DNA from: Bispira polyomma
Lineage: Eukaryota
Assembly (NCBI GenBank): GCA_965649765.1
Contig: OZ287750.1
Coordinates: 46,128,001-46,192,000 of the forward strand
Direction of reading: 5' to 3'
Length of the DNA stretch: 64,000 nucleotides
Part shown: one piece after another, positions 17,701 to 61,198 of the stretch
How the letters are laid out: every line of letters starts with the position of its first letter
Numbering within the stretch: position 1 is the stretch's first letter
Translations under genes and position numbers: made by a program
The notes under the pieces: generated by a model
Database searches by the model: none
Told to the model about the DNA's origin: nothing
Seen by the model: the letters and a program-made list of their open reading frames with translations, nothing else

Positions 17701-18725
17701 CAACCAGAGGTGTTTTAACACTGTAGAAATTATCAGAATTAAACTCCTGTTTTGTAGAAAAAACAGAGGTTTCTTTAAAAGGAAACATCTGTTTTAAACA
17801 ATAGGTATCACTCAATTTTGAAGAAACTCCCAATTCTCCTATACATAATCCCTTTTTAGAAACAGTACGAGCATCAAGGTCACCAATAATAACGAACAAG
17901 TCCATCAAAAAGTTACGATTTAGGTACCCTTATCTTTGATCGGGTCCAGATGAATGTGTTTATATTTAAACTTCAAGGCAGGGGGCTACATAATCTACTT
18001 ATACCATTCAATATATACACGAAAAGATTGCATCTACAGATTTCTAATTTTTTAATATTTTATTAATATGGTAAGTTATTGTCCGGTAAAGTGTAAATTA
18101 AAACTGAATCTATTCATCTAGTTGTAATTGTTCCCGTTGGTCTACTCGGAAGGCAGTAAGATTTGATAATAAAACGGCCACATATAAATAATGTTTACAC
18201 CTCACAAACATAGTAAACATTTTCTATAGAATCATAAGAATGGACTAGTTCCAGCAGCTTATTTTTCCTAACTTTTACTAAATCTATGTTTTATGCTTAT
18301 TTAATGCTATATATTTGTTGTATTTTATAGACAATGACTCACGTCACAAAATAGTTTGTCACAATGGCTGTATGTCGTTTTAATCATGCACAATATAGCG
18401 CATGACATTGTCCTTATAATGCGTGGGTTAAATATCTGGATCTTTGCAGAAAACATAACTGCTACTTTATTGAAATAATCACACGAGGAAGTAAATAAAT
18501 GTTATCAAATAATATCCTAATGACGAAACAACCATTTAAATATAAGGAGTTGGAAGCTACCACAGTATTTGAAAATAAGAGAGAATAGCTTAAATGAAGA
18601 GAAATTACAGAAACCTATCCTAGTATATAGTGTGTATGACTTTAAAATAATTAAATCATTTAAGAATTTAAAAAACTAGAAGAACGCATGTTTAAAGAGA
18701 CTATTAGAAAAATAAATAATGCAAC

Positions 18726-25600: not shown

Positions 25601-26443
25601 ATATCTTTAATTAAATTAACTTAGATCTGTTAGAAGGTCATTGTTAAATTTCCATATTCCCCTACCCCTTTTTCTACTTTCTGTTATTTCAATTTCGAGA
25701 TATATTAATCTATGATCAGAGCTGTTTCCAGCTATTACACTGGTATCCACAATTAATGATTCTATCTGTATTGAAACAAGCCAAAAGTCGATTCGAGACT
25801 GAACCAGTCCAACTTTTGTCATTTCTCGTCTTGTAAAAATTAGCTTATCCTTATGTCTGATCCTCCAGATATCTATAGGAGAAAGTTCTTCTGATAGTTC
25901 ATCAATATTGTTGCTGTAAACGGAGCGATTTTCACCACTGGTGCCACCTTTTTTATCAAGAGCAAGATTTAAGTATGTATTAAAGTCACCTCCAATGATT
26001 AAAGCTTTGTCACTATAATTCTCTAACATATTACGAACACAATTTAAAAATAAAGTCTGCTGTTCAGGCTTGTCCTTAGTTGGTGCATAAACATTCACTA
26101 TAACAAATGGGTTATCTTCAAATGTGCATTCTATCAATATTATTCAGCCAGTAGTGTCCTTTGTTGTTGAAACAATTGTAAATTGCAAATTAAATGTTTT
26201 GGGAATCAAAATTGCTACTCCTCTGCTATTAGTTGAACCATGCGAATATAAAACCTGACCACTCCACTCTTTTGTCCAATTTTGTTCATCTTTTAAAGTT
26301 GAATGAGTTTCTTGCAGGAGTGTAATACCATGATGATACTTTTTTAGCCATAAAAATACATTTTTTCTTTTTTGCTTATCACGTAAGCCTCTCCAGTTAA
26401 AGGAATTTATTTTAAACTTTTCTAAATTTTTAGCCGTACTCAC
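22650..26443 (-). pseudogene. LINE ORF2 (APE endonuclease + reverse transcriptase + zinc finger) with several stops and frameshifts
   Basis: SFNWRGL, LQETH, NVYAP, GGDFN, SRIDF, SDH; KSPG, NWRPVSLL, IDFRKAFD, RQGCPIS, MLADD; YCGSVDTISRHLYEC. Confidence 0.9.
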
Positions 26444-27194
26444 AAGAACTATGTTTCACAGTTTTAATATGACAGCGTAGATTTGATTTAATATCTGTTT
26501 TAATATGACATCGTAGATTTAATTTAATATCTAAGACTGATAATAACATAAACAGTAGATAAGTAGAAACACAACAAAGATACACATGTGACATGGAAAC
26601 ATTAAAGGACAAGAAGATAAGAAAAAAAAAAAAAAATTAAATTCTGTCTCTAAAAACAAAACAAAAGTAGGCTTACCTTCCTTATCTATGGATTTTAGAT
26701 AAAAATAACTAATCAAAACTAAGTTACAAGCACCAATTAGTGTTTTCAACATAGATCTACTAATGGTAATGGTATATTTATAAACTATATCTATTCATTT
26801 TTATTTGATTTATTTTTTTAATACAAAATTTATGGTTGTGGATTTTGAACAAGAATCAAGATAACTAATCAAAACTCAAATCATAATAACTAATCAAACA
26901 TCAAATCCAAAAAAAGTTTTTAACATACTATAGTATATTTACAAGCTATATGTAGTTATTTCTTATTGGGTTTTCAGTACTTTGCTAAGTATTAACATAT
27001 ACAGTATAAACATCTACATTTTAAACTATATCTGCTTGTTTAGATACAGAATAGTATGTAATTTTTGTTATCATTTTATTACCAAAAAATAGCATGCTAA
27101 TTATCGACATATAGAGGATAAACATATACCTGTTAGATACAGACTTGTATGTAATTTTTGTATGTCATTATATTATATATATCAAGCTTTAGAC

Positions 27195-28132
27195 TTACAC
27201 AATTTTGTCTCCCAACTCCATTAGCATCACACCTAACTTGTTTTGTCCTTTCCACTGACCATGATCCCAAATGTTCCTGTCTCTTAGTTTCGATCCAACT
27301 CCCCAGTAGAGGTCTTTTGGATTGGCCTCAGCTAACCTAGTTGATTTGGTGCCTTTCAAAAAGTTTCTGCAGCATGTGGACTGCTCATATTTTGCTGTGA
27401 GTGCTGTCATCATGATACTATCACACGTCCCAAATAACCTTTTTCTGACCTTTAATAGAGTATGCAAGTCCTTTCTGCTCTTAATACTAAGATCAGTCGC
27501 ATTCTGCCTTCACTACTTTTTGGAGGTGGTCCTACCCTATGGGCTCGAACCATGGCTCTGGGGGGCAGATGCCCTAGACCAGAGATTTGTAACAGTTCAA
27601 TAATCTTCCTTTCACAGACTATTGGTGTTTCTCCACGTTCTTCTGCTATGCCGGAAAAAAGTAGATTGTCCCTTCTTGAAGAGCTTTCCATCTTTAATAT
27701 TTTGTCTTCAAGCACCTTTCTGGACTCTTTTTCTTTTTCTTCAAGCACTTTTCTAGACTCTTTTTCCTTTGTCAACTCGTTCTTGCAGCTTTCTAATTCT
27801 TTTCTCTGTGTGTCCAACTGTGTAGTTAATATATCCAGCTTTGCTAACAAGTTATTATTTCCTTTTTCTATTTCTTCTTGCAATATTGATCTAAAGTTCT
27901 CTTGTATTTGCTGTTGTATTAGGTCTATTTTGTTCTGATTATCACTGGATCCGGAGTCAGCCGAGTAAACTGAGGGTTCTGCTAAGTTCAATTTACTGGA
28001 CTTTGGTTGGTTTGTTATGGAGGGTGACGGGGTGTCTGGTTCCACATCACTATGGGATCTGTAGTTTTTTGATGGCATTTTACTACTTATAGTTTCCATA
28101 ACCTCAATATATTGATATGTGTTCTGCCTCAA
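27195..28132 (-). pseudogene. LINE ORF1 (coiled coil + partial RRM) fused to a C-terminal NADAR/YbiA-like domain; internally deleted and frameshifted
   Basis: L1-type ORF1 motifs at 27490-28132. Reconstructed EQKGLAYSIKGQKKVIWD/CDSIMMTALTAKYEQ...FLKGT..RLAEANPKDLYWGVG...WKGQNKLGVMLMEL at 27195-27480. Confidence 0.78.
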
Positions 28133-29139
28133 AAAATGTTTAGTTCATTGGTTACTTTTACCTTTTATGTAGTACTACAATAGTGTTCTGACTTTTAGTA
28201 CAGCAACAATGCTCTGACACAACAAATGCACTTTGACTGGAATATCTGCTACTTAAACTTTTGTGACTACTTCTAAGATTATTTATAAAGTCTATATTTA
28301 TAAGCTTACTTTTTAACTTGAGAGTAGTGTGTCAATTATATGATATAGTAAATGTCATTTTACCTATATTCACATGCAACACAGTAAAACACCACTAATC
28401 AACATGTTTACATATTCCTTAAGTTCATTTCCTGTTTACTCCATGTTAAATCTTGTATTACTGCCCACCTAAATTTATATCCATCAGCATCCAAAAAACT
28501 ACATTATGGGAAAGACAATTTTGTACTCCTTTATTGTCTATACATTTCCCTCTTTCCAATTATATGTTTACATCACTATTTGCTGTTTTGATTATATAGA
28601 AATTTATTATATTATTTGTTAGCTTCAACTTTTTGTACCTAACTTTTTTTCATAATGTCCTCATAAGAGTATCACTTATAATGTGAGGTGGCTTTAGCCA
28701 GCATGCTCAGTCGGGGGTGAACCTTAAAACTCCACCACCATAGCCCTAGAAAGACTACTTTAAGAAAAGCATTTTGTTTTGACAACAAGTGTAATATTAT
28801 TCTTAATTGGCTAAAACACTCTCTACAAATCTCATTAGTTGACCTTGTGGGTCACTGCTTGTGTTGTGGGTATTTTCCTCACTTTGAAATTACAAACTGA
28901 GGTATCAACAGCTATAGTCTGCTTAAATTGGACGCCATTGTACTATTTTAACATTTACAAATTTTTTAGTTGTGATACTGGACTATTTTATCATTTATTT
29001 GACTATTTAAGTGTTTTATGATTGATACACACATTCATTTGTACTGGTAAGTGTTTTATAGTGACAGTGCAGGAGACAAGTTATATTGAACAATATAGTT
29101 TATCACGGTCCGGTCCGTCAATGTATATGTTGCTGTATT

Positions 29140-29630
29140 TTATATACAAAGAAATGAACAATATTGAATGTATTTATACGTGGTAATGGGTATACAGTAA
29201 CAGTACCACAGGAGAGACATATAATATTGATTTTATACGAGGATTATTCTATGCACAAAGAAAGACCAATATTAAATGTACATTAGCAGTACCATGAGAG
29301 AGTAAATATTATATTGATTTTATGACTTTATACGGACGATCATTCTAGGCACAAAGAAAATACAAACAAAACGATATTGAATGTATTTATACGTGGTAAT
29401 CAGTATACAGTAACATTAACACAGGAGAGACATATAATATTGATTTTATACGAGGATCATTCTATGCACAAAGGAAATAATAGTAAATGTACATTAGCAG
29501 TACCACGAGAGAGTGAATATAATATTGATTTTATGACTTTATAAGGATGATCATTCTAAACACAGAGAAAAGAACAATATTGAATGTACAGTGGCAGTAC
29601 CACGAGAGAGAATATAATATTGATTTTAGT
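29140..29630. repeat. Degenerate tandem repeat (about 100-120-bp subunits, about 5 copies) upstream of gag
   Basis: Recurrent AATATTGAATGTA..CAGTACCAC..GAGAG..ATAATATTGATTTTAT..GATCATTCTA.GCACAAAG. Confidence 0.8.
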
Positions 29631-30051
29631 AGATTGGCCATGCTAGGGCAATATAAGTTTTAAAATCGGTGAGAGATATACACACAGAGCAACAAGAGAC
29701 ATGAATATAAATTTAGCATAGATATATCATGCAAAGTGCAGTGGATTCTGTGAATAATAAACTTGGCAACCATTGACTGATTTCCTGACGTGGAGAGTGT
29801 GCTTCTGAGGATCTGTGCTCTGCTACATGCATTGTTCTGCTAGTTTTTACTGTCTTTCAGGGACGTAACTTTTACCTAATCACGAATGTGTCAAAATTCT
29901 TGGAAAAACAAGCAAAACAAACAAATGGTAACAGAGCACAGTTATTTGTCATTCTTAATTGTTTCAGAAAACTGACTTAGACAATATATATACATATAAA
30001 TACGGCCAATAAATTGAGCCAGTGAAAAAAAAAAAAAAAAAAAAAATTGTA

Positions 30052-31191
30052 ATGCCTAGTGTGAAGTGTACCGGCTGTGGAGGTAGACATCCGAGACCTG
30101 TGGGAAGACGATGCCTAGTGTTCAAACGGGCACAACGCGAGGCCGAGCAGGATGAATGGATTGACGACAGCGAGATTACTCAGGAAGAGGACCCGGATAC
30201 AGGGCGATTACAGCTTCCGATACAGCTTCAACTCCAGTCACAGGGTGAGTCGCTTCCAACACCGGAAGTTACACAGAATGAGGTGAACTTAACAATATTG
30301 TCAGAACTGAAAAAACTCAATAGTAGATTAGAGTTGGTTGAAAACAACCACACGGTGAACAGTAAAAGTGTAAGTGAAAGTACAAGTAAAAGTACAGCAG
30401 TAGTGACCTCTAGTCCTAATATTAGCAGGGCTCAACTTAGTCAGGCGTGTAGTGGAGCAAGTGCCCCTGATGGTGATGCCATCATACCCAGTCTCAATGT
30501 GATTAAATCCAATGATATACAAGTTCAGGTAGATCAAAGGCTGCGTGAGCTTGCCCTACTCAATGCCCAGGATCCTTCAGGTAAAAATCAGATCAAATCC
30601 CAAAGGGGTGTTTCAGTAGATGTTTTTGTTAAAAAGCGTGTCAAGTGGCCTCACCAGCATGTACTGGGAGGCTCCACAAAAGATAGAATAACGTACAACC
30701 AGCTCACATTTTCTCAGTTTGTATTGGGTTTCACTCGTAGTATTCAAGAAGAAAGTAATGCTCAAACAAAAGATCAAATGTTAGATTATTTATGTAATCT
30801 GTTAGAAGATGTCCAGGACTTTTCTTGGCAAGCTGCCAAGAATAGCCATGCAATACTCCTTTGTCAAATGGAGGAAGGTAAGATAGAATGGTCTGACACC
30901 AACAAGATTGACAGGGTACGTAGGGCACATGCCCAGAGACATGTAGTTGGTAGTAACACAGGTAGTAATTACTCCAAATCACAAACCAAAGATAGGAAAG
31001 CAGGCACACCTTGTTTTAGATTTCAAAAGGGGACATGCAAATTTACCAAGGATCATGAAATGGGGAGCAAAAACTTCATACATGTGTGTGAGTCCTGCTT
31101 TGCTATGGGTAAGTTGTTTAACCATCCTGACAAAGAGTGTAGGAACAAAAAGTATAATTCAAAAAACGGGGGAGGGCCAGCACCAAATTAG
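30052..31191 (+). CDS. Gag-like ORF1 of Ngaro-like element 2
   Basis: ATG at 30052 (MPSVKC). N-terminal CxxCxxxHx7C, coiled coil, W..AKNSHAILL core and C-terminal Cys/His fingers, all homologous to gag of element 3. Confidence 0.85.
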   Translation: MPSVKCTGCGGRHPRPVGRRCLVFKRAQREAEQDEWIDDSEITQEEDPDTGRLQLPIQLQLQSQGESLPTPEVTQNEVNLTILSELKKLNSRLELVENNHTVNSKSVSESTSKSTAVVTSSPNISRAQLSQACSGASAPDGDAIIPSLNVIKSNDIQVQVDQRLRELALLNAQDPSGKNQIKSQRGVSVDVFVKKRVKWPHQHVLGGSTKDRITYNQLTFSQFVLGFTRSIQEESNAQTKDQMLDYLCNLLEDVQDFSWQAAKNSHAILLCQMEEGKIEWSDTNKIDRVRRAHAQRHVVGSNTGSNYSKSQTKDRKAGTPCFRFQKGTCKFTKDHEMGSKNFIHVCESCFAMGKLFNHPDKECRNKKYNSKNGGGPAPN

Positions 31192-34020
31192 GCGCTGGCA
31201 AAAATGGTATAAAATATTGTAATGGACAGAGACACAGGTCAGATAGTGTATATAATCATGTAGAAGGTAGTAATACTGAAGTCAAGTATAGACAGTATGG
31301 TGATAGAATTGTGTATAGTACAGTCATACCTAATGTAAAAGTATTGCATAATAATCAGTTTTCAGGTGATTGGAGAGAAGCATATAGAAATGCAGGTCTA
31401 AAGCGCACATATGCACAGTCCCTGAAGCAGGGCACACGTGGTAAGGGTGTTGTAGTCAGCCAGCAGCAAGCTCGGTGTGGACGAAACTCTCCCACTAATA
31501 GAACAGCAAATGCCCTCAAAGTTACCAACCATAGCATATCTAAATCAGCTGTTTCAAATGGCACTAGCATTGACAACAACAAATGTCCAAAAAGGGGTGA
31601 TATTACAAAACCCCAAAGCTCCATGGCCAACAGTCACAATAAAACCCTCATTAGAGACAAACAGGTCCCACTGGCTAATCGTTTCACTCCCCTATTGTCG
31701 GCCCTGGAACAAGACGATGGTCATAACGAAGAAAGTGGGGAAAGGGGGGGATGTGATTTTCTCAAAAGTAGCATAAATAATGACACTTACGGACAGATTG
31801 GCAGTGCCATAAAAAATCAACCAGCTTGTGTCACAACTCCATTTTTAGCACATAAAAGGCGCAACATGTATGACAATGGGGATAAGGATAAAGGGAAAAC
31901 CACTTCTATTCAAGGGGTGGAAAACAACTTCACACTTCCACAAAGTGACAATGTTAGCAAAAGTACGGGTGTTTGTAATATGGGTAGTGGGGAGACTCGT
32001 ACTCCAGGAAATAAAACCAATATTGTCATAGACAGCATTGCATGGGGTAATAGTACGGTTGCTTCAAGTGAATGCAACAAACAATGTCATGGTAATGGAA
32101 CCGCACAAGGCAAGGACCAAAAAGTAGTATGGCAGGGAAAATTAACACCACATGCCCCAGTATTTATCCCTAACAAAGTACTTTCCCCGGTTGACTTGCT
32201 AAACGTAGATGGCAAATACGAATTGCAATTCTTGAGTAAAACCAACACAAAAGATATTGCTCAGCTAGTGCAATGTAAAAAATTATATGACACTTGTATG
32301 TTTCAAAACCCTCAAGGCTTTGGCTTTATACCATTGAGTGATTTTGTTAGAACCCAGCATCAGGTTAGTGTCCATACTGAGGATATACATGATCCCATAC
32401 TCTTACATGAAATGGTTAAGGCAACGGGGAAGTACAATTTTCAGCAGGCACGTTATCCTGTCAAATCCCAACTAAAGGTTGATAACTGGGAAAGGTACTT
32501 AGAGCATTACTGGGATTCACAGTTGATTGATTTCATCAAATTTGGATTCCCCCTAGGCTTTGATAGGAATGTTGAACTTCAGTGTGACTTAAACAATCAC
32601 ACATCAGCTACCCAATATCCAGCACATGTAGATACATATCTAAATGAAGAATGTGGTTTTAATGCAATTATAGGTCCCTTTGCCACCAGTCCTATTACAC
32701 AGCTTCACTGCTCACCATTTATGACTCGGGAAAAACCAGGATCAGTAAATCGCAGGGTAATCATAGATCTGAGTTGGCCAGAAGGTGGTAGTGTAAATGG
32801 AAATGAAGGACTCCTACTTGGGTACTAAATTTATCCTCACATTTCCTTCAATTGATAATATAGTAGAGCAAGTAAAGTCCTTTGGAAAGGGCTCACATAT
32901 ATACAAGATAGATATTTCTAGGGCATTTAGGCATGTCAAGATAGATCCCAAAGACTATGATTTGTTAGGCCTCTACTGGAAAGACTTCTATATTGACACA
33001 TGTCTTCCCTTCGGGTCAAGGAATGGTAGCCAGATCTTTCAGAGAATTAGTGATGGAGTAAGGTATATCATGAGTAAAAATAACCACAAGATTATCAATT
33101 ATATTGATGATTTAATAGGCTGTGGTGTACCCAGCAAAGCTAAGGCAGCATATGACTTCCTGTACCAATTACTAGGTGAGTTAGGTCTTACTATCAGTGC
33201 AAAAAAGTTAGTTCCACCAAGTACACAATGCAAATGTTTAGGAGTACTAATTGACACTGTACAAGGTACCATTTCTATTCCTGTAGACAAACTAGAAATC
33301 ATAGTCAAAACTTGTGCCACTTGGCAGGATTTTGAGGTAACCACAAAAAGAAAACTGCAGTCATTATTAGGTTCTCTCTTATATGTCGCAAAATGCTGCA
33401 AGCCAGCTCGCATTTTCCTGAACAGAATGTTGACTACTCTTAGAGCTGCTAGTAATCTGAAGCGTATTGTACTAGATGAAGAATTCCACAGGGATGTCAA
33501 CTGGTTTCAGTCTTTTCTAGCTCAGTACAACGGTGTCACCTTTTTTAACCACAAGCCGGTGGCTGCAGTCATTGAATTAGATGCATGTTTAACTGGGGTA
33601 GGGGCCAGGTATGGGGATAGGTTATACACTCTACCAATTCCCCAGTCCATGCAAGGCATCGGAATAGTCAGACTAGAGATGGTAAATATTGTAGTGGCTT
33701 TGAAGGTGTGGGGTAGTTACTGGAAAGACAGCAAAGTGGTTATCCGTTGTGACAATAGTGCAGTAGTATCAGTGTTAAACACAGGTAGGACTCGAGACAA
33801 ATACCTTGCAGCTTGTGCAAGGAATGTATTTCTCCTTACAGCTAGGCACAACATAGACTTAAAAGTAGTGCACATTTTAGGCATTAATAATGCAGTGGCT
33901 GATACACTATCCAGGTGGAAGGGCTCCAAATCTCAGTGGCAAATAATAAACAGGCATGTTAATGATCCTGTTTGGTGTGACCTTAAGCAAGAGGCCTTCC
34001 ACCTGGATTGGTCCATATAG
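31161..34020 (+). pseudogene. pol (RT + RNase H) of element 2, entered in the -1 frame from gag; one mutational frameshift at about 32805
   Basis: The -1 frame is open from 31161 into ORF 31311-32828; ORF 32797-34020 has KIDISRAFR, LPFG, NYIDD, DAC, CDN, ADTLSR. Confidence 0.88.
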
Positions 34021-35017
34021 ATTAAACATTATTGTAGGTACTACTCCAGTCATGAAGGCCCTGACCACTGGCGCCATTGGGAGGCTCACAGGAGCATTCA
34101 GGCCCTCTACACAACGAGCCTATACGGCTATGTTTAGAAACTTCTTAAGGTTTTGCTGCTTCACAGCTATTTCAGTGCATAGAATTACAGTCCATGTCTT
34201 ATTGGCATTCATGGAATTCTTGGCCTACAATAACACCTCTCCATCTCAGGTGGCCAATTACATGGCAGCTATTAAGTCCAGTTTATCAGTATATGGCCTA
34301 CCAGTTCATGTGTTTTCGGATAATAGGATCAAATTGTTCCAAAAGTCATTGTTACTGAACAGACCACTCACTGTGAAAATGAAAGGCATATTCCAAGTGC
34401 AGCACTTGGAAAAAATTGTCCATTTGTGTGACACTATGTTTATGGGTCAGGTGTATAAATCCATTTATTTGTTAGCATTTTTTGCTTTCTTTCGTATTTC
34501 AAATCTAGTTCCACATGCAAATGAACCATTTGATCCATCGGTTCACCTGGCCAGAGGAGACATCTTTTTTGCTCCACCAGGACTGCAAGTACTACTGAAA
34601 TGGTCAAAGACCATGCAATCAAAGAATAAGGTTCAGCTAATTAAAGTTCCCTCACTAGGTGGGTCTCCAATATATCCTGTGAGAGCAGTAAAAAATGTAT
34701 TGTCCCTTACACCTGGGGGAAAAAATCACCAGTTATTCCAGATTAAGAAAGCAGGTGGTTGGAGTCCACTAAATGATAACATGGTTAGGCAACATTTGAA
34801 GAAAGTGGTATTGGCTTTAGGGCTAGATCCTTCTACTCACCCCTTTCATACCTTCAGGCGTTCAGGTACCACCTTGGTATTCAACTCTAACGTTCCAATA
34901 CAACAGATCCAAAAACATGGTACCTGGACGTCTGATTGCGTCTGGAAATATATTGTAGACACCCAGGACTCAGCTACCCAGGTGGCCACTACCTTTCAAA
35001 ATCTACTTTCTCAATAA
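33956..35017 (+). CDS. Tyrosine recombinase of element 2 (intact ORF)
   Basis: FFRISN, LKWSKT, HTFRR, HGTW, WKY. Confidence 0.9.
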   Translation: MLMILFGVTLSKRPSTWIGPYRLNIIVGTTPVMKALTTGAIGRLTGAFRPSTQRAYTAMFRNFLRFCCFTAISVHRITVHVLLAFMEFLAYNNTSPSQVANYMAAIKSSLSVYGLPVHVFSDNRIKLFQKSLLLNRPLTVKMKGIFQVQHLEKIVHLCDTMFMGQVYKSIYLLAFFAFFRISNLVPHANEPFDPSVHLARGDIFFAPPGLQVLLKWSKTMQSKNKVQLIKVPSLGGSPIYPVRAVKNVLSLTPGGKNHQLFQIKKAGGWSPLNDNMVRQHLKKVVLALGLDPSTHPFHTFRRSGTTLVFNSNVPIQQIQKHGTWTSDCVWKYIVDTQDSATQVATTFQNLLSQ

Positions 35018-37097
35018 TACTACCACTAGTTTGGTTGTTTGGTGGTTATTTATTTATGTTATACTACTACGGTCTAATATATCTTAAATTTTACATGTAT
35101 AACTATTAATTCATAATGTACTACATAAGTACAGCTCTGGTTAGGTAACCAGAATAATTGTATACTAAAAATAATAGAACTTATATATATACAGTATACT
35201 AAATATTAAGAACTAAAAATGCATGTATCGGCACCAGGTTCATCTTATTCAAATCAAACATCTTAAAATCAAATTTCAAATTTAATTCATATCAAAAACT
35301 TTCAAAATCAAACATTTTAAATCTTAACTAATTATATATATAATAATTCATAAAATTGGGAACCTGTTGGCTTTAAGTTAAGGTTCCCTCATACCTATGA
35401 GGTCACCTTAGCTTAAATAGAATAAGTAATATGGTGTGTAACTGTAACATAGTTAATTATTAAATATACTCACAATTGGCAACAGGTACCTTGCATTTAT
35501 TCATTAAACTCAAAAATTTTACAATTTCAATTAGCTAAGTAATTCCTAATTCCCATTCTCAAAACCCATGGTACCTGGTGCCCTTGTTAGGGTGACCTTA
35601 GTCATTTAAGGTTACCCTACAAATGTTTTGTGTTGTACATGAAATGTAGTAGTAGTAAAATAAAATTTTATACCCGCAATACTCAGTGTACTCACTGGTC
35701 ACTCAAGGTCACCCATAGACTGGGAGAGATATTACTTAAGTCAGAGCAGGATAAACTCTAAATTTGCTCCGGGTAGCTGGAGCCCATAGACTGTGTGGAT
35801 CCCCCCCCTCCCCTGAGTTCACATCTAGTAGGCCAGGGTTGAATAGGAGCTCTGGGAGGTGATTAGGTGTCCAAGGTCTAGGGCTCCTGCCCCGGGTGAA
35901 GTTAAAGCAGACCGTAACAACCCATGCAGAAGACAGAGATAAAAGATCAACCTAATGTAAAAATTCAAACACAAGTTAGGCTAGTTCTATGACTAGACTG
36001 ATGGGGAACACAACATTAATTTATGCCTCATTTATGGGTAGACGTACAAATTTATACGGAACAAATGGAGGAATAATGTACTAATATATATATATATGAA
36101 GTACTAGATGTTCTATGCTCTATGTTATGTTTAAGGGCTAGGTCTAATTGTTTCAACCTGATGTTGGACTTTATTTGATATGAAGTAACGGTAAAAGTAT
36201 TTTATATTTTATTGGGGATTTGCTTACATGATTACTTATTGTATTATTGTTATGTATTTTATTATGTGTTAGTAGCCTATTGGGGCCTTAACATTTCACT
36301 TATCGTAAAAATCTAAGCAATTTTATATTATGTTAATGTCAATTGTGAAATATATATATGCTAACATGTACAAAATAAATACTCAAATGAAATCTTTTAT
36401 TACCTTCTTCAATCTCATAAATAAAATCCTTCATGGCCTTTTAAGAAATTCAACCTGACCTTTAGGAAATATAACCTTGATGAGACTTTTAAAGCAAATG
36501 TATGCGCTGACAGAGGGCAACCATTTTTACGTGGTCATCCGAGCCACTATGTATACATCTGTAACTGACAGCCCCAGACTGGAGATACAATCCAGGTCAT
36601 CTATGTTCCCTGAGGCATTAGTGATAGATAAAACATTTCTACCAAACAGAGATGGTCACTCCTGAAATCTTGCCTTGACAAGAAAGATGCCCGCCAACCA
36701 GCCCAACATGGGGATAGAAATAACTGCTAGTCATTAATTAACAAGAAGGCTGTTTGACCGCTAGCGGTCCCATATCTTGGCATGCCTGTATGGTAAGCAT
36801 TTCCACAAACTGTGTTACATATCTTAAGATGCTAGAGAACAATCCAACACACAAAAATAAAAATAAAATATAACCTCCTGACTTAAAATTATAGCTAGCT
36901 AATGTTTTTCTTTGTATAAACAACCAAATTACCGGAAAAACTCTTTCAATAATTTGTTTGTCATATAATTTTGCTTTAAAACCTTATAAAAATGATTTAA
37001 TTTGTGGGTCATAATATAATATTTTGAGGGTAAACTACAGCAGCCGTATTCACTATCAGACTTAAGCTAAGTCTTAGGCTTAAATCTAGCACAAAAG

Positions 37098-37515: not shown

Positions 37516-40089
37516 GAGTGTTTGTTATAAATGTTATGGATGGCCGGACAAACCAAAAATTATCAGTCAACCTAAATGTAAAATAAAAATTTATCGGTTG
37601 ACCTGTCTATTTGAAAGTAAAATAAAAAAATGTTATCTATAAGTTAAAAGTAAAGCTTCTCAGTGGGGTTAAACATTACTCACAAAACCCCCGAAATTGA
37701 AATAGACTTAGATGATAGGAATCTTTCACAGGCCTTAAATGGCATTATTATTCCTGATTAACAACATACCATTGATCAGAGTATAAGAATTAAATACTTC
37801 TTGAACAATCCTAATCGCCATTTGCAAACATGTACATACATATCTCAAATATATCCCTAAACTCGCTGATTTACTTCTATATATATTTTCCAAGACTGTG
37901 CTGTCCACCAACAAAATGTATAATGAAAAATGAGGTAATTAGTAGGCCAAAATACAAATCCCATTTAACGAACAAAGAAAACAAAAAATAAATATATTTA
38001 AATGGGGGACACATCCTCAGTAACAAACAGTCATAACTACCGAAAATAAAGTAAAAATTATATAAGGAGATGGTAGATAGTGCCGTCTACATCTTTAGAT
38101 TATTCAAAAGCCTTATCTTGCTTATGCCCATATATGGGCACACAAAGAAAACAACCTTAAAGCGTTTGATACTATTGCCTGTGATAATAATTGTTGCAAA
38201 AGTTTCTGCTATATTGCTTGTGAATGCTGGTAAATAGTGGAATACATCATGAGACAGCCAATGACAAAATAAGAGGTCTGTCTCTTTACTATGTTGTGGG
38301 TGGGAAAGTTCACAAGATTAGTTTCCAGCCACCGTCAGCAGGCCAGAAGGAAATATTGTACCTTTACCTAACTGGTGGTTTTGGTAAGAAACGGTCAGCT
38401 GATTTTTCATGAAGTATACCTACTGAATTTCGCCATGTCCAATAGATACATGGTTTGAAGTAAGGAAATTTATTTAAAATAAATACTTTATGCTATGGGA
38501 AAAAACTGAAGTATATTGAGTATTTTAATTCTTAGCCTATAAAAATTGCGGCAAGCAACAGCCAATTTGTAACGGCAAAATCAGATGTAATCTGTTTTAT
38601 TTAGGCTGTCAGCCAGCGGTTATTTGGAAACATAGGTAAAAAAAACTGCATACACAGGTAATACACAATATTATCCCATCCTCAACCGGTAGAAGTGTTT
38701 CATTCAAGATGCAACAACTTAAGGGTTTAGTAACGTAAACACAAAAAACGATTGCCGCTAAACCACGTTATGTGTGCTCGTGGTTCTCAGAAACTGCACA
38801 ACTTTTTTCTTTGTGGCCTTAAACTGAATTTATGGATAACATATTTACATTTTCATGAGTAGAAACAATAAAAAATAACCAATGTATTAATTATATACTA
38901 ATTTATATATTTTACGTATCATTTTAATAGGTATCTTGACACATACAATACATATAGCAGTGTGTCAAATTGTAACTAAAATGGGTAATATTTTCAAAGT
39001 ACATGCTTCACAAATGTGACACAATTCATATACCAAGAAGAGATCAATACTAAAGTATTGTACATGAATAGAAAAAGGAAAACATCAGCATTATTTTGAA
39101 TGAATTTGTTTTTCAATAAAAGCACAAAAACAGGGATATTTTAGAAAAGCATTAAAGTTACACTCTTATAAACAGAAAGATGTTTTGTATTCTTCGTTTT
39201 TATAAAATAAGGAAACATATTGAAAAATGTAATTCATTAAAAATAATATACACATTTTTTAAAGTTGTATAGCGTATATATTGTGTTCATATATGCTGGA
39301 TCAATACTCGTATTATGTCACAATAAAAAGGTCTCTCTGCAAGAAATGTTTACAAATATGACGTTCCACTATAAATTTCAAATTGTGTGACGTCACAATA
39401 CAGGATCCGCTATACTACTGTTTTAATCATTCTTTAATGAAATATTGAAGTGTTAAATTGTTTCTGCATATAAAAATAGTTAAAACGGTCACTAAAGACA
39501 TATTTTAAGGCTGCCATAGTAGGTGGTTGTGGTTAAAATATTTTCGTAAGTGCAGTAAAATTTGCAGCCGCGCATTTGTGTGTTTACGTTACTAAAGCCT
39601 TAAAATAGGGGATACTAACTCATCACTAGATTTGTATTCAGCATAATGTCTACGATGCAAGAAGAGGAACATTATGTATAAATAATTATGTCTTAGTTAT
39701 GTAATACTATACTATCTATGAAAACTCATAGTACATACCAATAAATTTTATGCTGTTAGAAAGCAGAATTTTTTTTCATTAAACTGATAACTTAAATGGT
39801 GCTTCGCTGTCATTAGGTCTTGTCTCCAGTGGCAAGGTAAAGAACCTTGGAGACGTTGATAAATGGTCATCCCCAAGCCTATTATTTCAGTTAAGAAATT
39901 GACATTTGCTGATGCTAGTTGAATGTATTTGGGAAGTCAAAAAAATGGTAATTAGAGGTTAGAATGCCATACAAATATAAACAAATTTGATGTGTAAACA
40001 TTTGAACACGAACAGAAGTTAACAAAACAAGTTACAACATCAAATACGAAGCTCTCCTGCCGCCATAGACAAAAATATTTTTGCGAATT

Positions 40090-40295
40090 CAATTGTTATA
40101 ACAATTTAATTAAATCATTATAACGGATTACTAAATCGTTATAACAATTAAAAAAAACAGTTTTTTAAAATCGTTTTAACGATTTAATTAAATTGTTATA
40201 ACAATTTAGTAATCCGTTCTAACAATTTATTAAATTGTTAGAATGGATTACTAAATCGTTATAACAATTTAATTAAATTGTTAGAACGATTTAAA
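40090..40295. repeat. AT-rich minisatellite of about 21-bp subunits
   Basis: Recurrent GTTATAACAATTTAATTAAAT / GGATTACTAAATC in both orientations. Confidence 0.7.
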
Positions 40296-41637
40296 ATGAC
40301 CTGTAGCAAAAATTTATTCAGTATTTTATTTATCCAGTGAATTTCTTAAAAAATTATAAAACAGTGACCTTTTACTACTGCTAATATTCCTATCTATAAA
40401 GTCTTCAACCTCATAGACTCTTAAAGGCTGAAAAAGGTTTGATTTGTTACACTTAATTATTCTTGTACATACAAAACATCGATTGGTAGGCATGATGCTT
40501 AACTTTATTTTTGCAACCAAATTTGACACACTTAATTCATCATATAATCAGAAGCCTTAACGATACCTGAGCTTTCTATAGTTCCTATTTTCTAGTCAAA
40601 TTTTCTAACTCTCATGACATGGATACTTAAATCTTATATATTGTACTTAAAAAAATTCTTATTCATTAACCTTCTTTTGGTATTTAAAGTAACATTTTAT
40701 GGGGCCTTATTGCTGGTCCATAATACTTACAACAGGTTATATAAATTTGAAAAGACAGTTTATTTTAAAAAAGTATTACTTTTTACAATTTTATTTTTGG
40801 TGTTTGTAGATAAATTTTTACTGTGAGAAATTTTAGATTAACACTTAACTAAATACATTTTTATAAACTGACAAGATTTTATGCCACTTTTATTATGTTC
40901 GAGTACGCTACCTTTTAAAGAGGATAAATCTATATAATTTCTAGATGGTCACTTTTTATGCTTTAACCACGCCCCATATAAAGCAAACATAATCACTTGA
41001 GACAGAAGTATTTATAAACGGTTTTACTTAAACTTGCTGTTCAATTAAACTAATGTTATATGATTATTTAGTCAACAAAGTACATGTATGTGATTACTCC
41101 AAGCTAGTCATATATCAACAAATCTTTCTTCCTCCATATAGTTACAATTTAGGAACCCTTATCTTTGATGGGTCCAGATGAATATATGTTCTTTTATACT
41201 TAAACTTTTCTGCATGGGGCTATTAATTAACTACTTATACTATTCGATATATATATGCACCATAAAAGATTGCCTATACAGATTTACAAATATTTTCGAC
41301 TGGGCTTATTAATATAATTATAATTTGTTGTCGTGTTAAGGGTAGATTAAACCTTAATCAATGGCTCTATTTGTAATTGTTACTGTTGGTCTAGTCGGAA
41401 GACATTAATTGACCGGTAGTAAGATAAGATAATGGAACGAGGAAATAAAAATAGTGTTTATACTTTGCAGTATGGATTTTCTGGAAGCCACCACAGTATT
41501 TGGAAGGGGATAGCTTAAATGAACAGAAATTGTGGAAACCTATCCTAGTGTACAATGTATAATAAACCATTCAAGAATTTAAGAAGCTAGAAAAATGCAT
41601 GTTTATAGAGACTATTAGAAAAAATAAATAACGCAAA

Positions 41638-44394
41638 ATGTCTGTTGAAACAGTGTTTGAAAACTTGTAGTACAGAGCCTGTTGTAATGGTGAGGAAGAA
41701 ACAGCCATAAGACATTCTCAACATAAGACACAAAGATAATGGTACCACAGTGCTGCACACAGTGGATGCAGATGAGGGGCTCAGCAAAGTAGTCCCAAAG
41801 GTACTGCTCAAGGGATTTCCGATAGACTTAGTGGACGATCAGGGCCTAAATGTATTGCATTGGGCTCTGCAGAAAAAAAAGAGTACGAACATGGTTCGAG
41901 CACTTCTGGAAAGCGAACACTGTTTCCCTTTGTATGACCAAAGTGCTAAGGAAAAAGGATTTACACCGTTGATCTGTGGGCTGAAGAACAGCAGTGGGGA
42001 GGCAGCAAAGGCCTTGCTTATATGTGATGGCCAACATGCTCTGTGGAGTGTGGATACAAAAGAAAAGCAAACCTTCAGGATTGATTTCGAAAGCTATATG
42101 GCATCAAAGCAAAATATTTATGTTGAGGCTATGAAGATTAATGATCCAGAACTAATTAAGTTATTGCTAGAAAAAGATCAGCATTGGAGAGAAGGGGTAG
42201 TTAGGGGAACATAATGGAAAAAATGGACTGATGATAGCTGCGGAACAAAAACTATGGAAGAATGTTGAAGTTGTTCTGATGCATGGTGATCTGAGTCTGA
42301 GTCAATCTGATCTTGAATCAGTACTGGTCGAAGTGGTCAGAGACGGTAACCACAATATACTTGATAAGATTCTGACCAAAGAATTCAAAAAAGGTACACC
42401 AAGCCTCAGTACAAGATTGATACATGTGGCTCTGACCTCACCAAAGAGGGACACAAAGATTGTACAGATGCTTACTCAAAATGGAATGGATATTAAAGGT
42501 GTTAATGAAAATGGCCTTAACATAGTGCACGTCATAGCTTCCAATGGCGATGACAACATTTTGTCTGTTGTTGGAGGTAATTTGCCTCAAAAAAGTTTGA
42601 ACAAAAAGTTCCAAGACTTACTGTCACAGAAATGTCCAGTATATGACTGATAGTTCTCTGTTTTGGAGATCTCACACAGCCTTACAAACAGAAGCAGTGC
42701 AATACTTTACATATAGCAACCGTAAATATACATTTTACTGTTCTGAGTAAACTTCTGCTGTATATGGCTGATCTACATGACATAGATGATAGCGATCGTT
42801 CACCTTTACAGCTTGTGAAAGAACTGAATGAAAACTTTGGAAGTCTAACCCCAGATTACAGTCATAAATTTGACGAAATATATGAAGCTCTACTTAAGGC
42901 AGGCAAAGAGGTGCCAGATACCAATATACAAAAAAAAACTCATGGAAAACTTAGAAAAGGTTATATTAGCAGAAATGCAAACAGATGTGGTGGCAATCAA
43001 AGAAAAGATTGAAACTATTGAGGTGACCACAAAGCAGTCTCGTGAGGTCATAAAACAAGTCACTTAAACTGTAACCTTATTGGAACAAAATTTGAAAGCA
43101 ACATCTGTAGAAACCAAGATCGCTTTAGAAGATGTGAAAGAGGAACTTGTCTTACTCAAGTGCAGTGTGTCTACTGAAGAAATAGTATATTATGAACTTA
43201 TACATAGCAAAGGAAGTTGGACGAAGTCAAAGAGGAGAAGATGATAAACCTTTATGAGAACAATTGGCAGATGAGTTACTTACAGTTGCTGATTGTCCAA
43301 CAGAAATATGTTCTACCAGTAAACAGAGATAATAAGTCTAACCAAGAATGTGCTTTGCAGTTACTTGTGATCTGGAAATCATTGATTTGTCAAGGGAAGA
43401 TCCAGCTGCCTGTCATTCAGGCAGTACTGAAGAAACTGAATGTTGAAATTCCCGATTTGACTAGCCTCAAAACACAAATTGCTGAGTATTGGCAAAGATC
43501 TAAATCAGGTATGTAACAATGAATGTCAAACTGTAAAATACACACAAAGCCTGTTTTTGTAAAAAATTAGTATCATGGTGAACAAAATCTAAAATTGTTC
43601 ATGTCATGTTTGTTATTGTTTTAAATTATATTTAACACGTTCGACCCCTAGGTTGTCGCCGAGCAGTTGAAGGCAATTGTTAGTCCCAGGACCTGTGTCT
43701 GTTGGCAAGCAGATAACACACCAAATATATTATTTGTCTTCAGTTTCTAACAATAAAACATTGTTAGTGCAGCAGACGTCCCTATTTAAAAATTACAAGT
43801 ACGGTCGTTATGTGATGCCCGAAGTAGTGTGGTGTCTGTTTTAGTGACCTAGCTATGTGTCACCTGTTGTTTTGGTTATCACAGTAATTAATCTGGTGAA
43901 ATGTGAATTTCATTATATGGTTAAACTGCATGATTTTATCTAATACACTACTGACCTCAATTGAATAGTTTTTGAATATTCAGCTTTTTTTAAATCTCCA
44001 TATCACTTTCCAAATGATCAATTTTGTTTTTCCAAACAAGTAATTCTCCCAAGCTGTTTAGATAAGAGAATCTTTACTGCAATCACGTATTTTGTAGTTG
44101 ACCTCAGTGACAGAAAACTTGTGACATTGCCAGAATGATTGGGAAGGAATGGATGGAACTTGGACTGGAGCTGGACTGGAGCTGGACTTGGACAAACCAG
44201 AGCTGGAAAAGGTTGATGCAGACAATAGTCACATGCATGATAAAATACTGGAGATGCTCTTGACATGGAGAAGAAAAGAGGCAGGATACTCAGATGTAAA
44301 AATGGTGCATCTGTGCAAGGCATTAACGAAAATAGGCAGAGCAGATATAACGCGTGGAATTTCTACAAAAAGTAAAATATGCAATATTGTATAA
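41638..44394 (+). pseudogene. Second ankyrin/coiled-coil/death-domain paralog with many frameshifts and stops, inside a segmental duplication (about 41130-44730 vs about 17910-21920)
   Basis: Colinear with 18726-21530 including intron and flanks; ORF pieces at 41750, 42231, 42764, 42870, 43217 and 44149. Confidence 0.88.
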
Positions 44395-45430
44395 GTTAAT
44401 GTGCATGGCAAAAGATGAATTAAGATATATTGTTGTGAAACAGAATATATGGTATATTTATTTCAATAGTTTATGTTATATATGATGTCACGATGGTTAA
44501 TTTTAATTCAAGATTTATTTTTTGGCAGTTAAATAAAGTAGCAAGTAGCTCAGTTGTTCAGAATATTCTGATTATATATTATAATATCTGTAATAACTAC
44601 TGTAATGTTGAACTCCTATTTGGAATCATGTTTTTAGCCATGTTTGATACAGAATGTATGGTATATTCATTAAATAAGTTGATGTTAATTATGTTTCAAT
44701 GGTTACGTCTACTTTTTAAAGTAAATTGAAGGATAATGTTTAAGAAAATCTTGAATTATATCAATTAGCTTAGCTGAAGGATAATGTTTAACAAAATCTT
44801 GATTTTTATCAAGTGGCTTAGACTTACATTTAACTGATGCTGCTTAGACCGTAAACCTAATTAATGTAATTGTAGACTACCTTTTGGATATATATTAAAT
44901 CATATATTTATTCTGGGATTTCATGTTACATATTATATTCACGTGGTTTGGTTCAATTATTTAATTTTGTTAATTTTAATTTGACTTATAATTTTTTGTG
45001 TTTTGCTGTTGAACATATAATTTGTCATTTTAGCCACTGTTTAACCCTTTAATATAGCATTGAAAATGCTGAAGGGCAAACAATATAAATCCCCTGCTGA
45101 ATATCTGTACAAAAAATCAAGTTGATATGAGTAGAAATGCAGAAGGAAAAATGTTTTTGTTTATGGACATTAGTGCAAGTTGTAAATGAAATTAGATAAT
45201 AGTTTGTATTCCAAATTATGTTCATCTGGTATTTAAAGCACTTTTGAAAAACCTTTTCTTGACTAAACAACTATAGTCAACCAGTGCCAAGAAAGGCTAG
45301 ACTAGACCAGACTAGAAGATGGTCAAAATCTCTAATGCTATTAAGCCTGTCACTGGAGACCGAGGACCACCATCTCAGCCAATATGTATCTATCTGTAAC
45401 TGACAGCCCCAGACTGCACATACAACCCAG

Positions 45431-59960: not shown

Positions 59961-61198
59961 CACATTCCCTATAATAAGCTATGAAGTGTTGCTGGACAGG
60001 CAAGGTGTAGAATTAGCACCACTCCAGTTCTTGGTGGTTGTTTTACTGTGACAGACGTGTTTGATCGTGACAATTTTTTTTAGAACAGTCCAGGCCAGCT
60101 GATGGGATTTAAGGAGAATGGACACGACACATGATAATACAAGATTAATACAATATAAGAGGCATTTTAGTATCAAACAAGTTAAGGTAGTTAAATATAT
60201 ATATTTAAGGTAATTCTTCAATTTTCGCTTATGCAAGACCAGTATTTTTGAGATGTTTATCAACCAAATTTGATTTTTTTTTCGTTCTTGGATATGGCAA
60301 ATCAGATTTGTGTACAGGAGAACATGTACAGATAATTTACAAACAGATAAAAAGTCTCCATCGCATATTGCTACAGGCTGTCGTGTAGGTGAAAACAGAA
60401 GCCAACACATCGCTCACTAAATCAGGTTCCATTAGTTTCCATTGTTTTGACATTGTAAAAACATGTGTAACTAATGTGCCCAGTTACCTACACTCACAAA
60501 CAATGTATTCATGTTTTAACAGCAGGTCTCAGGCCCAGAAACCAGAAATATGAAAAACCAAGCAAGTTGGCTCATTCACTCGGGGTGTTTAGGCTTCACG
60601 CCAGTCAGTCCTGCCTCACCCTTTAGAAATCTGCTTAAGTTACCAGACTAATTTTAACAGGTAAAAAGGTTATGACATCATGGGATTTCCACTGGTTATT
60701 AGGGGTTCAAATTGTTTATTATCTTAAATTCTGATTGGCCCAAGAGTAAGGGTTCACCTCCCATTTGTGACTTAGCTTCAGTTTAAAACTTGAGATCGAA
60801 TGGCACAGACGTACTTGAATTGTTTTGAATTGTTTAGAACTGTTTTTATATTTACAAAAGCTTTTATCAATTTTACAAACTGTTTATACGTTTTTAGTTT
60901 GTTTTAGTGATTGTGGATATATAAACTGGACTTAAAAAACGGACTAGAACATGGAATAGTACTTGTGAAATTCTCACTCAGTGGAGTTGGAATACAGTTG
61001 GAGTTCACTCGGCTGATCTGACAACCTCATGCTTGTATTGCCTGAAAGAGCAGCTTAAAAGGGACGATTCAAATCATTTTGATTAGTTAATGTTGTCCAA
61101 ATTGGTCGAATTTTGATCACAAGCTTGAAGTTGTCACATCAGCGTTCAGAGGGCTGTGAATATTTTTCAGAAATTTCAGATAACATTGACAATTTAAA

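What the first reader, a model, noticed from the sequence alone, without database searches (positions are those of the whole stretch)
35225..35915. Matching structured RNA domain (about 700 nt) after YR in element 2
Seen: long-range pair GGCACCAGGT (35230) / ACCTGGTGCC (about 35573); GGAACCTGTTG/CAACAGGTACC; a 13-bp stem ending in TTAAATAG, then TATGGTG; hairpin TAGGGTGACCTTA/TAAGGTTACCCTA; ACTTAA-N6-GCAGGAT (35734-35752); a rod of about 143 nt at 35761-35903 (CCGGG, GGAGCCC/GGGCTCC, TAGAC/GTCTA, CCTCCC/GGGAGG, GAGTTC/GAGCTC); then TTAAAGCAG. Motif order and rod length mirror element 1 although the stems differ in sequence, which is the pattern expected for a conserved ncRNA. I know of no description of such a domain.
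Basis: partly seen in the sequence, partly recalled or inferred. Interest (0 to 1): 0.78.

Follow-up and report, generated by a model that had tools for sequence, protein, structure and literature searches.

The report
Folded tail of Ngaro-type retrotransposon
The stretch is the strongly folded non-coding tail of a jumping gene that copies itself through RNA and inserts with a tyrosine recombinase; it most likely carries signals on the element's own RNA rather than being a separate RNA gene, and its claimed match to a second element is weak.

Summary
It lies between the YR stop and a terminal B-type repeat of a Ngaro-type retrotransposon (gag, RT-RNase H, YR) in an animal genome. The 'mirror' with element 1 is only marginal: anchored and chained motif tests give p about 0.05-0.2, and the motifs are absent from 28 of 28 related loci, only one of them a same-clade full tail. 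New here: a 119-nt G-free linker shared with relative L002, an internal UGUA/AAUAAA poly(A) module, and a break near 35726 where this copy leaves its sister copies, so the 700 nt may be two units. A pistol-ribozyme-like geometry at 35413-35461 failed membership tests. Best reading: cis-acting structured 3' module of the element's RNA that governs 3'-end formation and end restoration; no RNA data. The scan noted a folded Ngaro tail before in another genome (e1-7557041).

The parts
30052..31191 (+). gag-like ORF of element 2 (379 aa, C-terminal Cys/His motif)
   Evidence: similar to gag of element 3, L002, L003 (E 1e-28 to 1e-40)
31311..34020 (+). RT-RNase H gene, split over two frames near 32800; no methyltransferase domain found
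   Evidence: (RVT_1 E 5e-13)
33956..35017 (+). tyrosine recombinase ORF (353 aa), overlapping RT
   Evidence: Phage_integrase E 6e-06; 155 relatives at E <= 1e-20
35018..35224 (+). AT-rich segment after the YR stop, beginning with the TTTGG motif seen after the stop in relatives; no AATAAA; not a copy of the terminal repeat
35230..35582 (+). long-range helix 35230-35243 / 35568-35582 closing the 5' half of the domain
   Evidence: pair probability 0.73 on +, 0.24 on -
35239..35357 (+). 119-nt G-free linker (56 A, 46 T, 17 C), longest in the window; L002 has a 121-nt one after its YR
35358..35490 (+). three-way junction: closing stem 35362-35371/35478-35487, 13-bp hairpin 35372-35417 with inner stem, hairpin 35425-35470; holds TTAAATAG (35413) and TATGGTG (35430); pistol-like spacing at 35413-35461 that fails membership tests
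   Evidence: (z -5.3)
35584..35622 (+). hairpin / 13-6-13 inverted repeat 35588-35619; the one G.U pair is G-C in most sister contigs
   Evidence: P 0.92; 35613, other letter in 852 of 873 depth in X1
35634..35714 (+). internal poly(A)-site-like module: UGUA motifs, AATAAA at 35659, and AAGGTCACCC (35705-35714), a second perfect complement of 35590-35599 that is not populated at equilibrium
35726..35915 (+). ACTTAA..GCAGGAT, rod 35756-35907 and TTAAAGCAG; this copy's sequence here is unique among contigs and depth is far lower than upstream
   Evidence: z -3.5; record 7; depth 38-81 at 35803-35809 in X1
36281..36488 (+). terminal B-type repeat with AATAAA at 36374, similar to element 1's B; no second copy in element 2
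   Evidence: 0 of 274 window controls; at most 5 of 200 block shuffles
4056..5383 (+). element 1 tail for comparison: B1 4056-4245 identical to B2 5194-5383; spacer 4246-5193 with junction hairpin 4250-4275 and rod 4692-4847
28600..28900 (+). possible 5' end region of element 2 (depth peak; CGGGGGTG..TTAA motif like the rod end and the A-repeat end of L002); not a copy of the tail
   Evidence: no alignment to the tail

Best explanation
This is the non-coding 3' module of a Ngaro-type tyrosine-recombinase retrotransposon, i.e. the stretch between the YR stop and the terminal B repeat that in this superfamily holds B1, A2 and a spacer. It is transcribed as part of the element's full-length RNA, not as its own gene. 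SHOWN: element anatomy, folding potential, G-free linker, two poly(A)-site-like modules (35659 and 36374), no Rfam family, no ORF. INFERRED: helices separated by G-free, unpairable linkers act in cis. Most likely job: 3'-end control, letting polymerase read past or choose between the internal and the terminal poly(A) site, as retroviral repeats do, and holding the internal B|A junction folded so that the missing ends can be restored during reverse transcription. A role as Gag/RT binding or priming site is possible but untested. The 700 nt are probably two units, 35225-35725 (shared by many copies) and the rod from about 35726 (few, divergent copies).
For: Ngaro layout: B1=B2 in element 1; full A1-B1-A2-B2 in L006 and A1=A2 in L002; GDSL/SGNH hydrolase after YR in relatives L005 and L017; definition in PMC9210276 and PMC8547959 (passages). 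Elements 1, 2, L001, L002, L004 and 20 protein hits form one clade (100/99). Fold z -5.8. G-free tract of 119 nt: expected 0.05 to 1e-6 times in the window for G 10-18%; 121 nt in L002 and 74-96 nt in five more loci after YR. In relatives a stem encloses the B1 AAUAAA in 14 of 16 printed folds by my reading, about 8 families, with more enclosing pairs at B1 than at B2 in 5 of 5 loci that gave both copies (29/1, 13/10, 14/8, 13/0, 14/2). A stem spans the B1|A2 junction in 6 of 6 elements with a known junction (z -1.6 to -5.0). In helices stable on both strands the internal non-WC positions are G.U on + in 4 cases and A.C in 0. Sister contigs turn the one G.U of hairpin 35588-35619 into G-C. Region 35089-35641 is laid at 580-4300 against 140-310 for the coding body (X1).
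Against: No RNA evidence of any kind. Element 2 has neither an A1 copy nor a B1=B2 pair in the window, so its repeat boundaries are inferred; none of three candidate junctions shows a clear spanning stem (z -0.7, -1.9, 0.1). The helix that would enclose AAUAAA 35659 costs 4.2 kcal/mol and has probability 0.0. The hexamer itself is clearly more paired at B1 than B2 only in L006 (0.22 vs 0.82), and element 1's B1 stem depends on the window chosen (0/0, 3/3, 10/3). The minus strand folds at least as well. No covariation test was possible for this domain because no alignable homologue was obtained. Four of the five B1/B2 loci are related. Depth from contigs is not a copy number and may include cross-mapping of AT-rich sequence.
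Confidence: 0.5

Rival explanations
1. Largely incidental or composite: hairpins arose by local inverted duplication in a fast-evolving spacer, the rod and the 36281-36488 repeat are a piece of another Ngaro tail next to (or recombined with) element 2, and the likeness to element 1 is chance plus shared base composition.
For: Motif sharing p 0.05-0.2; whole-tail similarity falls to z 1.0-1.8 under block shuffles; motifs in 0 of 28 loci; this copy is unique from about 35726 to 36331 while its body differs by under 1% from collapsed contigs; 36281-36488 matches element 1's B but not element 2's own post-YR segment; DIRS-1 inserts into older DIRS-1 copies (PMC7192593 passage); 13 of 425 tiles fold at z <= -3.
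Against: G-free linker recurs in relatives; at least five single-copy contigs carry the rod region; the expected left half of an interrupted older tail was not found (6 of 318 controls at best, after narrowing); long rods occur in three tails (elements 1, 2 and L005, z -2.6).
Confidence: 0.2
2. A discrete conserved non-coding RNA of about 700 nt, homologous in elements 1 and 2, made or processed from the tail and acting in trans.
For: Same order of motifs and a rod of similar length and position; CACC(A/U)UA can pair with UAUGGUG in both; ACTTAA..GCWGGAT occurs only at these two places in the window; CGGG..T..TTAA occurs at both rod ends and at the A end of L002, 3 of 5 window hits in element positions (motif chosen after the fact).
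Against: Marginal statistics; element 1's 5' half is not significantly structured; L002 lacks motifs and rod; break at 35726.
Confidence: 0.12
3. The structure works in single-stranded cDNA or in DNA: folded junction or the 13-6-13 palindrome at 35588-35619 is a recombinase binding/recombination site, as with folded single-strand substrates of other tyrosine recombinases (integron attC, CTX phage; recalled).
For: DIRS-1 cDNA is single-stranded and mostly linear (PMC7192593 passages); minus-strand DNA folds at z -4.4; the palindrome is perfect in most sister contigs; GGT(C/T)ACC occurs 3 of 5 times in the window within this domain; junction-spanning stems also form as DNA in relatives.
Against: Element 1's known junction has no 13-6-13 palindrome; the palindrome is in 0 of 268 loci; G.U bias and the G-free tract point to the plus-strand RNA.
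Confidence: 0.12
4. 35413-35461 is a divergent pistol-type self-cleaving ribozyme that cuts the element's RNA between 35456 and 35457 when the 13-bp hairpin opens.
For: Exact pistol spacing: UUAAAUAG, 4-bp P2, 5-nt loop, 6-nt pseudoknot strand, G-N-G, 7-bp P3, 2-nt junction; the G33-C41 pair (PMC6795133 passages) reads A-U. A descriptor written after seeing the site hits only here in the window and in 0-1 of 3000 shuffles. An AU junction occurs in 2 of 27 phage pistols.
Against: No Rfam pistol hit at E <= 10; a P1-less core model gives 7.5 bits, below chance hits of up to 17 bits (training set was selected on the canonical motif); loop AGUAA against YUAAG, G33 and C41 changed, no 5-bp P1 with a 6-nt loop (22 of 27 phage pistols have it); none of 120 viral matches to an A33-U41 pattern looked like a sound pistol (9 weak folds); element 1 does not fit; fold costs 6 kcal/mol.
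Confidence: 0.06

Closest known systems
Ngaro retrotransposons (order DIRS), split direct repeats A1-ORFs-B1-A2-B2 (PMC9210276, PMC8547959, PMC3783388; passages read)
   Same: gag, RT-RNase H without methyltransferase, overlapping YR; non-coding tail after YR; B1=B2 in element 1; related loci with full repeats or an SGNH hydrolase.
   Different: Tail is long (about 1.35-1.5 kb from YR stop to end) and has no hydrolase; element 2 shows no A1/A2 or B1/B2 identity; my searches found no paper describing RNA structure in Ngaro tails.
Internal complementary region and 3' hairpin of Dictyostelium DIRS-1 (PMC7192593, passages read)
   Same: Non-coding cis element after the genes needed to rebuild the ends; primer of reverse transcription unknown, a 3' hairpin proposed.
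   Different: DIRS-1 has inverted repeats and an 88-bp ICR complementary to the ends; no such complement was found here.
Retroviral polyA hairpin / poly(A)-site suppression in repeated ends (PMC2645353, PMC3694450; search listing and abstract starts only)
   Same: A repeated end carries AAUAAA and RNA structure decides which copy is used; relatives show a stem around the B1 hexamer whose 5' arm lies outside the repeat.
   Different: Here the internal 3' copy, not a 5' LTR, must be passed; in element 2 the enclosing helix is not favoured in the predicted ensemble.
Pistol ribozyme, Rfam RF02679 (PMC4604425 first of four parts; PMC6154101, PMC6795133 passages)
   Same: UUAAAUAG linker and exact spacing of P2, pseudoknot strand, G40/G42, P3 and 2-nt junction in element 2.
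   Different: Conserved loop, G33, C41 and P1 not met; no model hit; known from bacteria and phages.
SIRE of Trypanosoma cruzi VIPER and solo AB repeats of Cafeteria Ngaro (PMC6681497, PMC8547959; passages read)
   Same: Terminal non-coding parts of YR retroelements occur in excess of the coding body.

Membership tests
Ngaro superfamily (DIRS order) | gag, RT-RNase H and tyrosine recombinase ORFs in order, often overlapping | tested here: met
Ngaro superfamily (DIRS order) | No methyltransferase domain after RNase H | tested here: met
   Pfam finds only RVT_1 (and RVT_3 in element 1); ORF ends after the RNase H region
Ngaro superfamily (DIRS order) | Split direct repeats A1...B1-A2-B2 | tested here: inconclusive
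   Element 1: B1=B2, A1 outside the window. Element 2: no A or B pair found. Same-clade L002: A1=A2, no B pair within the contig.
Ngaro superfamily (DIRS order) | Phylogenetic placement with named Ngaro elements | tested here: inconclusive
   YR tree has no named reference; element 2's clade is related to loci with Ngaro hallmarks (L006 repeats; L005/L017 hydrolase)
DIRS-1-like | Inverted terminal repeats and internal complementary region | tested here: not met
   no inverted match over 11 nt between 28000-30050 and the tail
Pistol ribozyme RF02679 | Score at Rfam gathering threshold | tested here: not met
   positive control 11 of 20 viral loci hit
Pistol ribozyme RF02679 | P2, P3, 2-nt junction and linker spacing | tested here: met
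Pistol ribozyme RF02679 | P1 stem with 6-nt loop forming a 6-bp pseudoknot | tested here: not met
   4 of 6 pairs at the canonical position, 5 of 6 elsewhere; no sound P1
Pistol ribozyme RF02679 | Conserved core A31, R32, G33, G40, C41, G42 | tested here: not met
   R32, G40, G42 present; 31, 33, 41 read U, A, U (consensus)
Pistol ribozyme RF02679 | Site-specific self-cleavage | not testable with these tools
   needs in vitro assay
Conserved ncRNA shared by elements 1 and 2 | Covarying pairs in a structural alignment | tested here: inconclusive
   two sequences only; the consensus fold of the MAFFT alignment does not recover either rod
Conserved ncRNA shared by elements 1 and 2 | Motifs present in other related elements | tested here: not met
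   0 of 28 loci (15 with tails >= 500 nt, one of them same-clade)
Conserved ncRNA shared by elements 1 and 2 | Discrete transcript | not testable with these tools
   no RNA holder listed

The most novel reading that the evidence does not exclude
A large, unnamed animal clade of YR retrotransposons has replaced exact split repeats and the hydrolase ORF with a long structured RNA module (G-free scaffold, pseudoknotted three-way junction with a pistol-like core, poly(A) switch, rod) that cuts or primes the element's RNA, which would supply the missing primer or end-processing step of DIRS-order retrotransposition and be the first pistol-like RNA in an animal mobile element.
Probability: 0.1. Interest if true: 0.82.

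Novelty: new variant of a known kind. Interest (0 to 1): 0.42.

Why it matters
How DIRS-order elements start reverse transcription is unknown (PMC7192593, passages), and elements with a repeated 3' end must pass an internal poly(A) site. A long, strongly folded tail with defined helices, a G-free linker shared with a distant relative and two poly(A) modules gives concrete sequences to test in reporters, probing and priming assays. The protein clade is large (155 YR and 578 RT clusters), so a real RNA module would be widespread. As it stands the conservation claim is not established, which limits the weight.

Tried and rejected
No whole genome held. No RNA holder listed among 3 runs; no evidence on expression either way. 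No relatives in viral contigs or prokaryote genomes; 28 confirmed loci from 598 pattern matches in metagenome contigs, scan cut at 51 of 64 parts. Rfam: nothing at gathering in the window or in 20 of the 28 loci; at E <= 10 only chance hits. Decayed hydrolase ORF: no tblastn hit under E 0.8 and longest frame 56 aa on +. A1 or B2 copy of element 2: none. Homology of 5' regions of elements 2 and 3: z 0.8-1.5. Nested insertion into an older tail: left half not found. Poly(A) switch by the alternative helix: probability 0.0. Pistol membership rejected. Twister and hairpin ribozyme likenesses were considered from recalled consensus and dropped, with no Rfam hit. Two-sequence consensus folding was uninformative. 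Sigma-70 scan irrelevant for a eukaryote and at chance (7 vs 8.2). Rows dropped: L015 gave no B1/B2 pair and one L024 row was an unrelated tandem repeat; output was cut in the middle (L016); one search shows 40 of 798 letter differences, 15 of 52 joints and 12 of 1035 loose ends. Literature: nine searches found no description of RNA structure in Ngaro tails or of a pistol ribozyme in a DIRS-order element; the library lacks most subscription papers, including the original Ngaro description, and no supplements were read.

Full report
Setting. The window looks like animal nuclear DNA (tRNA-derived SINE copies, a LINE endonuclease, a gypsy-type pol, ankyrin duplicates; the host kind is my inference). 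It holds three tyrosine-recombinase (YR) retroelements. Element 2 has gag 30052-31191, RT-RNase H 31311-34020 split over two frames, and YR 33956-35017. No methyltransferase domain was found. Element 1 ends in two identical 190-nt repeats, 4056-4245 and 5194-5383, the B1 and B2 of the Ngaro layout A1-ORFs-B1-A2-B2 (PMC9210276 and PMC8547959, passages). The YR has 155 relatives at E <= 1e-20 and the RT 578 at E <= 1e-40, without DNA context. One metagenome scan gave 28 loci from 598 pattern matches. In a YR tree elements 1 and 2, L001, L002 and L004 fall in one clade (100/99); loci with an SGNH hydrolase after YR (L005, L017) or with short full split repeats (L006) lie outside it. No named reference was in the tree.

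Observation. All listed stems and motifs are at the stated places. The 691 nt fold at z -5.8, 0 of 20 shuffles as good, with three local peaks: 35350-35499 (z -5.3), 35550-35699 (-3.4) and the rod (-3.5). The minus strand folds as well, as RNA (z -7.2) or DNA (z -4.4). In helices stable on both strands of the two tails, internal non-Watson-Crick positions are G.U on the plus strand 4 times and A.C never, a weak pointer to plus-strand RNA. In fixed 150-nt tiles 13 of 425 reach z <= -3, only one of them in this domain, so the fold is real but not unique in this genome. Rfam has nothing at gathering level or, beyond chance hits, at E <= 10. The region is not a decayed hydrolase gene.

Match to element 1. 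Element 1's 4246-4910 folds at z -1.6. Both elements have a GC-rich rod at a similar distance from the YR stop and from the terminal repeat, and in both CACC(A/U)UA upstream of UUAAAUAG can pair with UAUGGUG (read from the sequence). But collinear chains of shared words are reached by 3 of 60 to 39 of 200 shuffles; motifs anchored on the rod ends give joint p 0.05-0.19; an 8-mer plus 7-mer is shared by 1606 of 3000 random segments, and by 198 of 3000 with the pairing condition. Rods align at z about 2, the 5' halves at z 0.3, and the whole-tail signal drops to z 1.0-1.8 when local composition is kept. The one robust link is element 1's B against 36281-36490 (0 of 274 window controls, at most 5 of 200 block shuffles). 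Neither motif pair occurs in 28 of 28 related loci, even with a mismatch per half; 15 have tails of 500 nt or more, and only L002 is both same-clade and long enough. L002 has no comparable rod.

(1) A 119-nt G-free tract, 35239-35357, the longest in the window, expected 0.05 to 1e-6 times for G at 10-18%; L002 has 121 nt after its YR, also followed by a strong stem, and five more loci have 74-96 nt. (2) An internal poly(A)-like module: UGUA motifs and AATAAA at 35659; the next are at 36374 and 36420. (3) A second perfect complement of 35590-35599 at 35705-35714, which would enclose the hexamer but costs 4.2 kcal/mol and has probability 0.0. (4) Contigs of two runs of one study (depth is no copy number and one run may be the window's source): single-copy contigs 14-20, coding body 140-310, positions 35089, 35517, 35613 and 35641 at 809, 581, 873 and 4288, the rod at 38-81 (X1). 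A contig identical to the window spans 35696-36361 at single-copy depth, so this copy parts from its sisters at about 35726, while other single-copy contigs carry divergent, partly deleted versions of the rod region. Most contigs read C at 35613, which makes hairpin 35588-35619 a perfect 13-6-13 inverted repeat. (5) Element 2 has no A1 copy and no B1=B2 pair in the window.

Relatives show what such tails do structurally. A stem whose 5' arm lies just before B1 encloses the B1 AAUAAA in 14 of 16 printed folds by my reading (about 8 families). In the 5 loci that gave both copies, enclosing pairs number 29/1, 13/10, 14/8, 13/0 and 14/2 for B1/B2, but the hexamer itself is clearly more paired at B1 only in L006, and four of the five are related. 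Element 1's version depends on the window folded. A stem spans the B1|A2 junction in 6 of 6 elements with a known junction (z -1.6 to -5.0), but at none of three candidate junctions of element 2 clearly. This agrees in kind with the earlier scan note e1-7557041, which is an unchecked AI note and not independent support.

Pistol lead. UUAAAUAG followed by a 4-bp stem, 5 nt, 6 nt, GUG, a 7-bp stem, 2 nt and the partner strand (35413-35461) has the spacing of a pistol ribozyme (recalled, then checked in PMC4604425 part 1 of 4, PMC6154101 and PMC6795133 passages, and on 27 distinct phage examples from 121 matches). A descriptor written after the fact hits only this site and 0-1 of 3000 shuffles. 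But A31, G33 and C41 and the P1 stem are not met, Rfam gives nothing, a P1-less core model scores it 7.5 bits against chance hits up to 17 (the model was trained on motif-selected sequences), and element 1 does not fit. It is not a member; an in vitro test is cheap.

Mechanism. Shown: anatomy, folding potential, linker, poly(A)-like modules. Inferred: the tail is part of the full-length RNA and acts in cis, most likely in choosing the 3' end (compare retroviral polyA hairpins, PMC2645353 and PMC3694450, listing only) and in presenting the internal junction for end restoration; the primer of DIRS-order reverse transcription is unknown and a 3' hairpin has been proposed (PMC7192593, passages). 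Odds: cis RNA module 0.5; incidental or composite 0.2; discrete shared ncRNA 0.12; DNA-level recombinase substrate 0.12; pistol-like ribozyme 0.06.

Novelty. Nine paper searches found no account of RNA structure in Ngaro tails; most subscription papers are not in the library. The element type is known and the scan has noted a folded Ngaro tail before. This long, multi-domain version is a new variant whose conservation is not established. Interest 0.42.

Noticed in passing
L006 4040-4125, L008 6378-6460, L009 3162-3255, L010, L012, L016, L021, L023-L026, L002 4947-5030: A stem whose 5' arm (TTTGGG motif) lies just before the B1 repeat encloses the internal AAUAAA; at B2 the arm is missing. Candidate poly(A)-site occlusion in Ngaro elements, with different stem sequences between families.
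   Followed up: partly
window 4235-4290; L006 4130-4180; L009, L016, L023, L024: An imperfect hairpin spans the B1|A2 junction in all 6 elements with a known junction; candidate folded substrate for the recombinase.
   Followed up: partly
L005 1595-1725: A rod of about 130 nt overlaps the end of the SGNH hydrolase ORF; its 3' arm is the GGGTTTGG..TTTGGGG motif that precedes the poly(A) signal (z -2.6).
   Followed up: partly
window 61000-61149: Strong imperfect hairpin (z -3.8 to -5.1) ending about 50 nt before the gag start of element 3.
   Followed up: no
window 28712, 35893, 4827, 60581; L002 168 and 5455: CGGG(G)T..TTA(A) motif at the end of L002's A repeat, at both rod ends and upstream of elements 2 and 3; may mark A-repeat ends or a promoter element. 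Chosen after the fact.
   Followed up: partly
window 23000-28200, minus strand: Degenerate LINE (endonuclease domain at 25616-26137) back to back with the 5' region of element 2.
   Followed up: no
window 18700-21500 and 41750-44400: Duplicated ankyrin-repeat gene region (about 90% identity, 22.9 kb apart) flanking the LINE and element 2.
   Followed up: no
window 40088-40319, 8031-8088/8639-8696, 10900, 15100, 46000: Other strongly self-complementary stretches (tile z -6 to -18), probably small inverted-repeat transposons.
   Followed up: no
window 30025-30047 and 61856-61897: Long homopolymer runs just before or inside gag of elements 2 and 3; possible sequencing artefacts or slippage.
   Followed up: no
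L241 340-389 and 60-106: Two pistol-like matches in one small viral locus.
   Followed up: no
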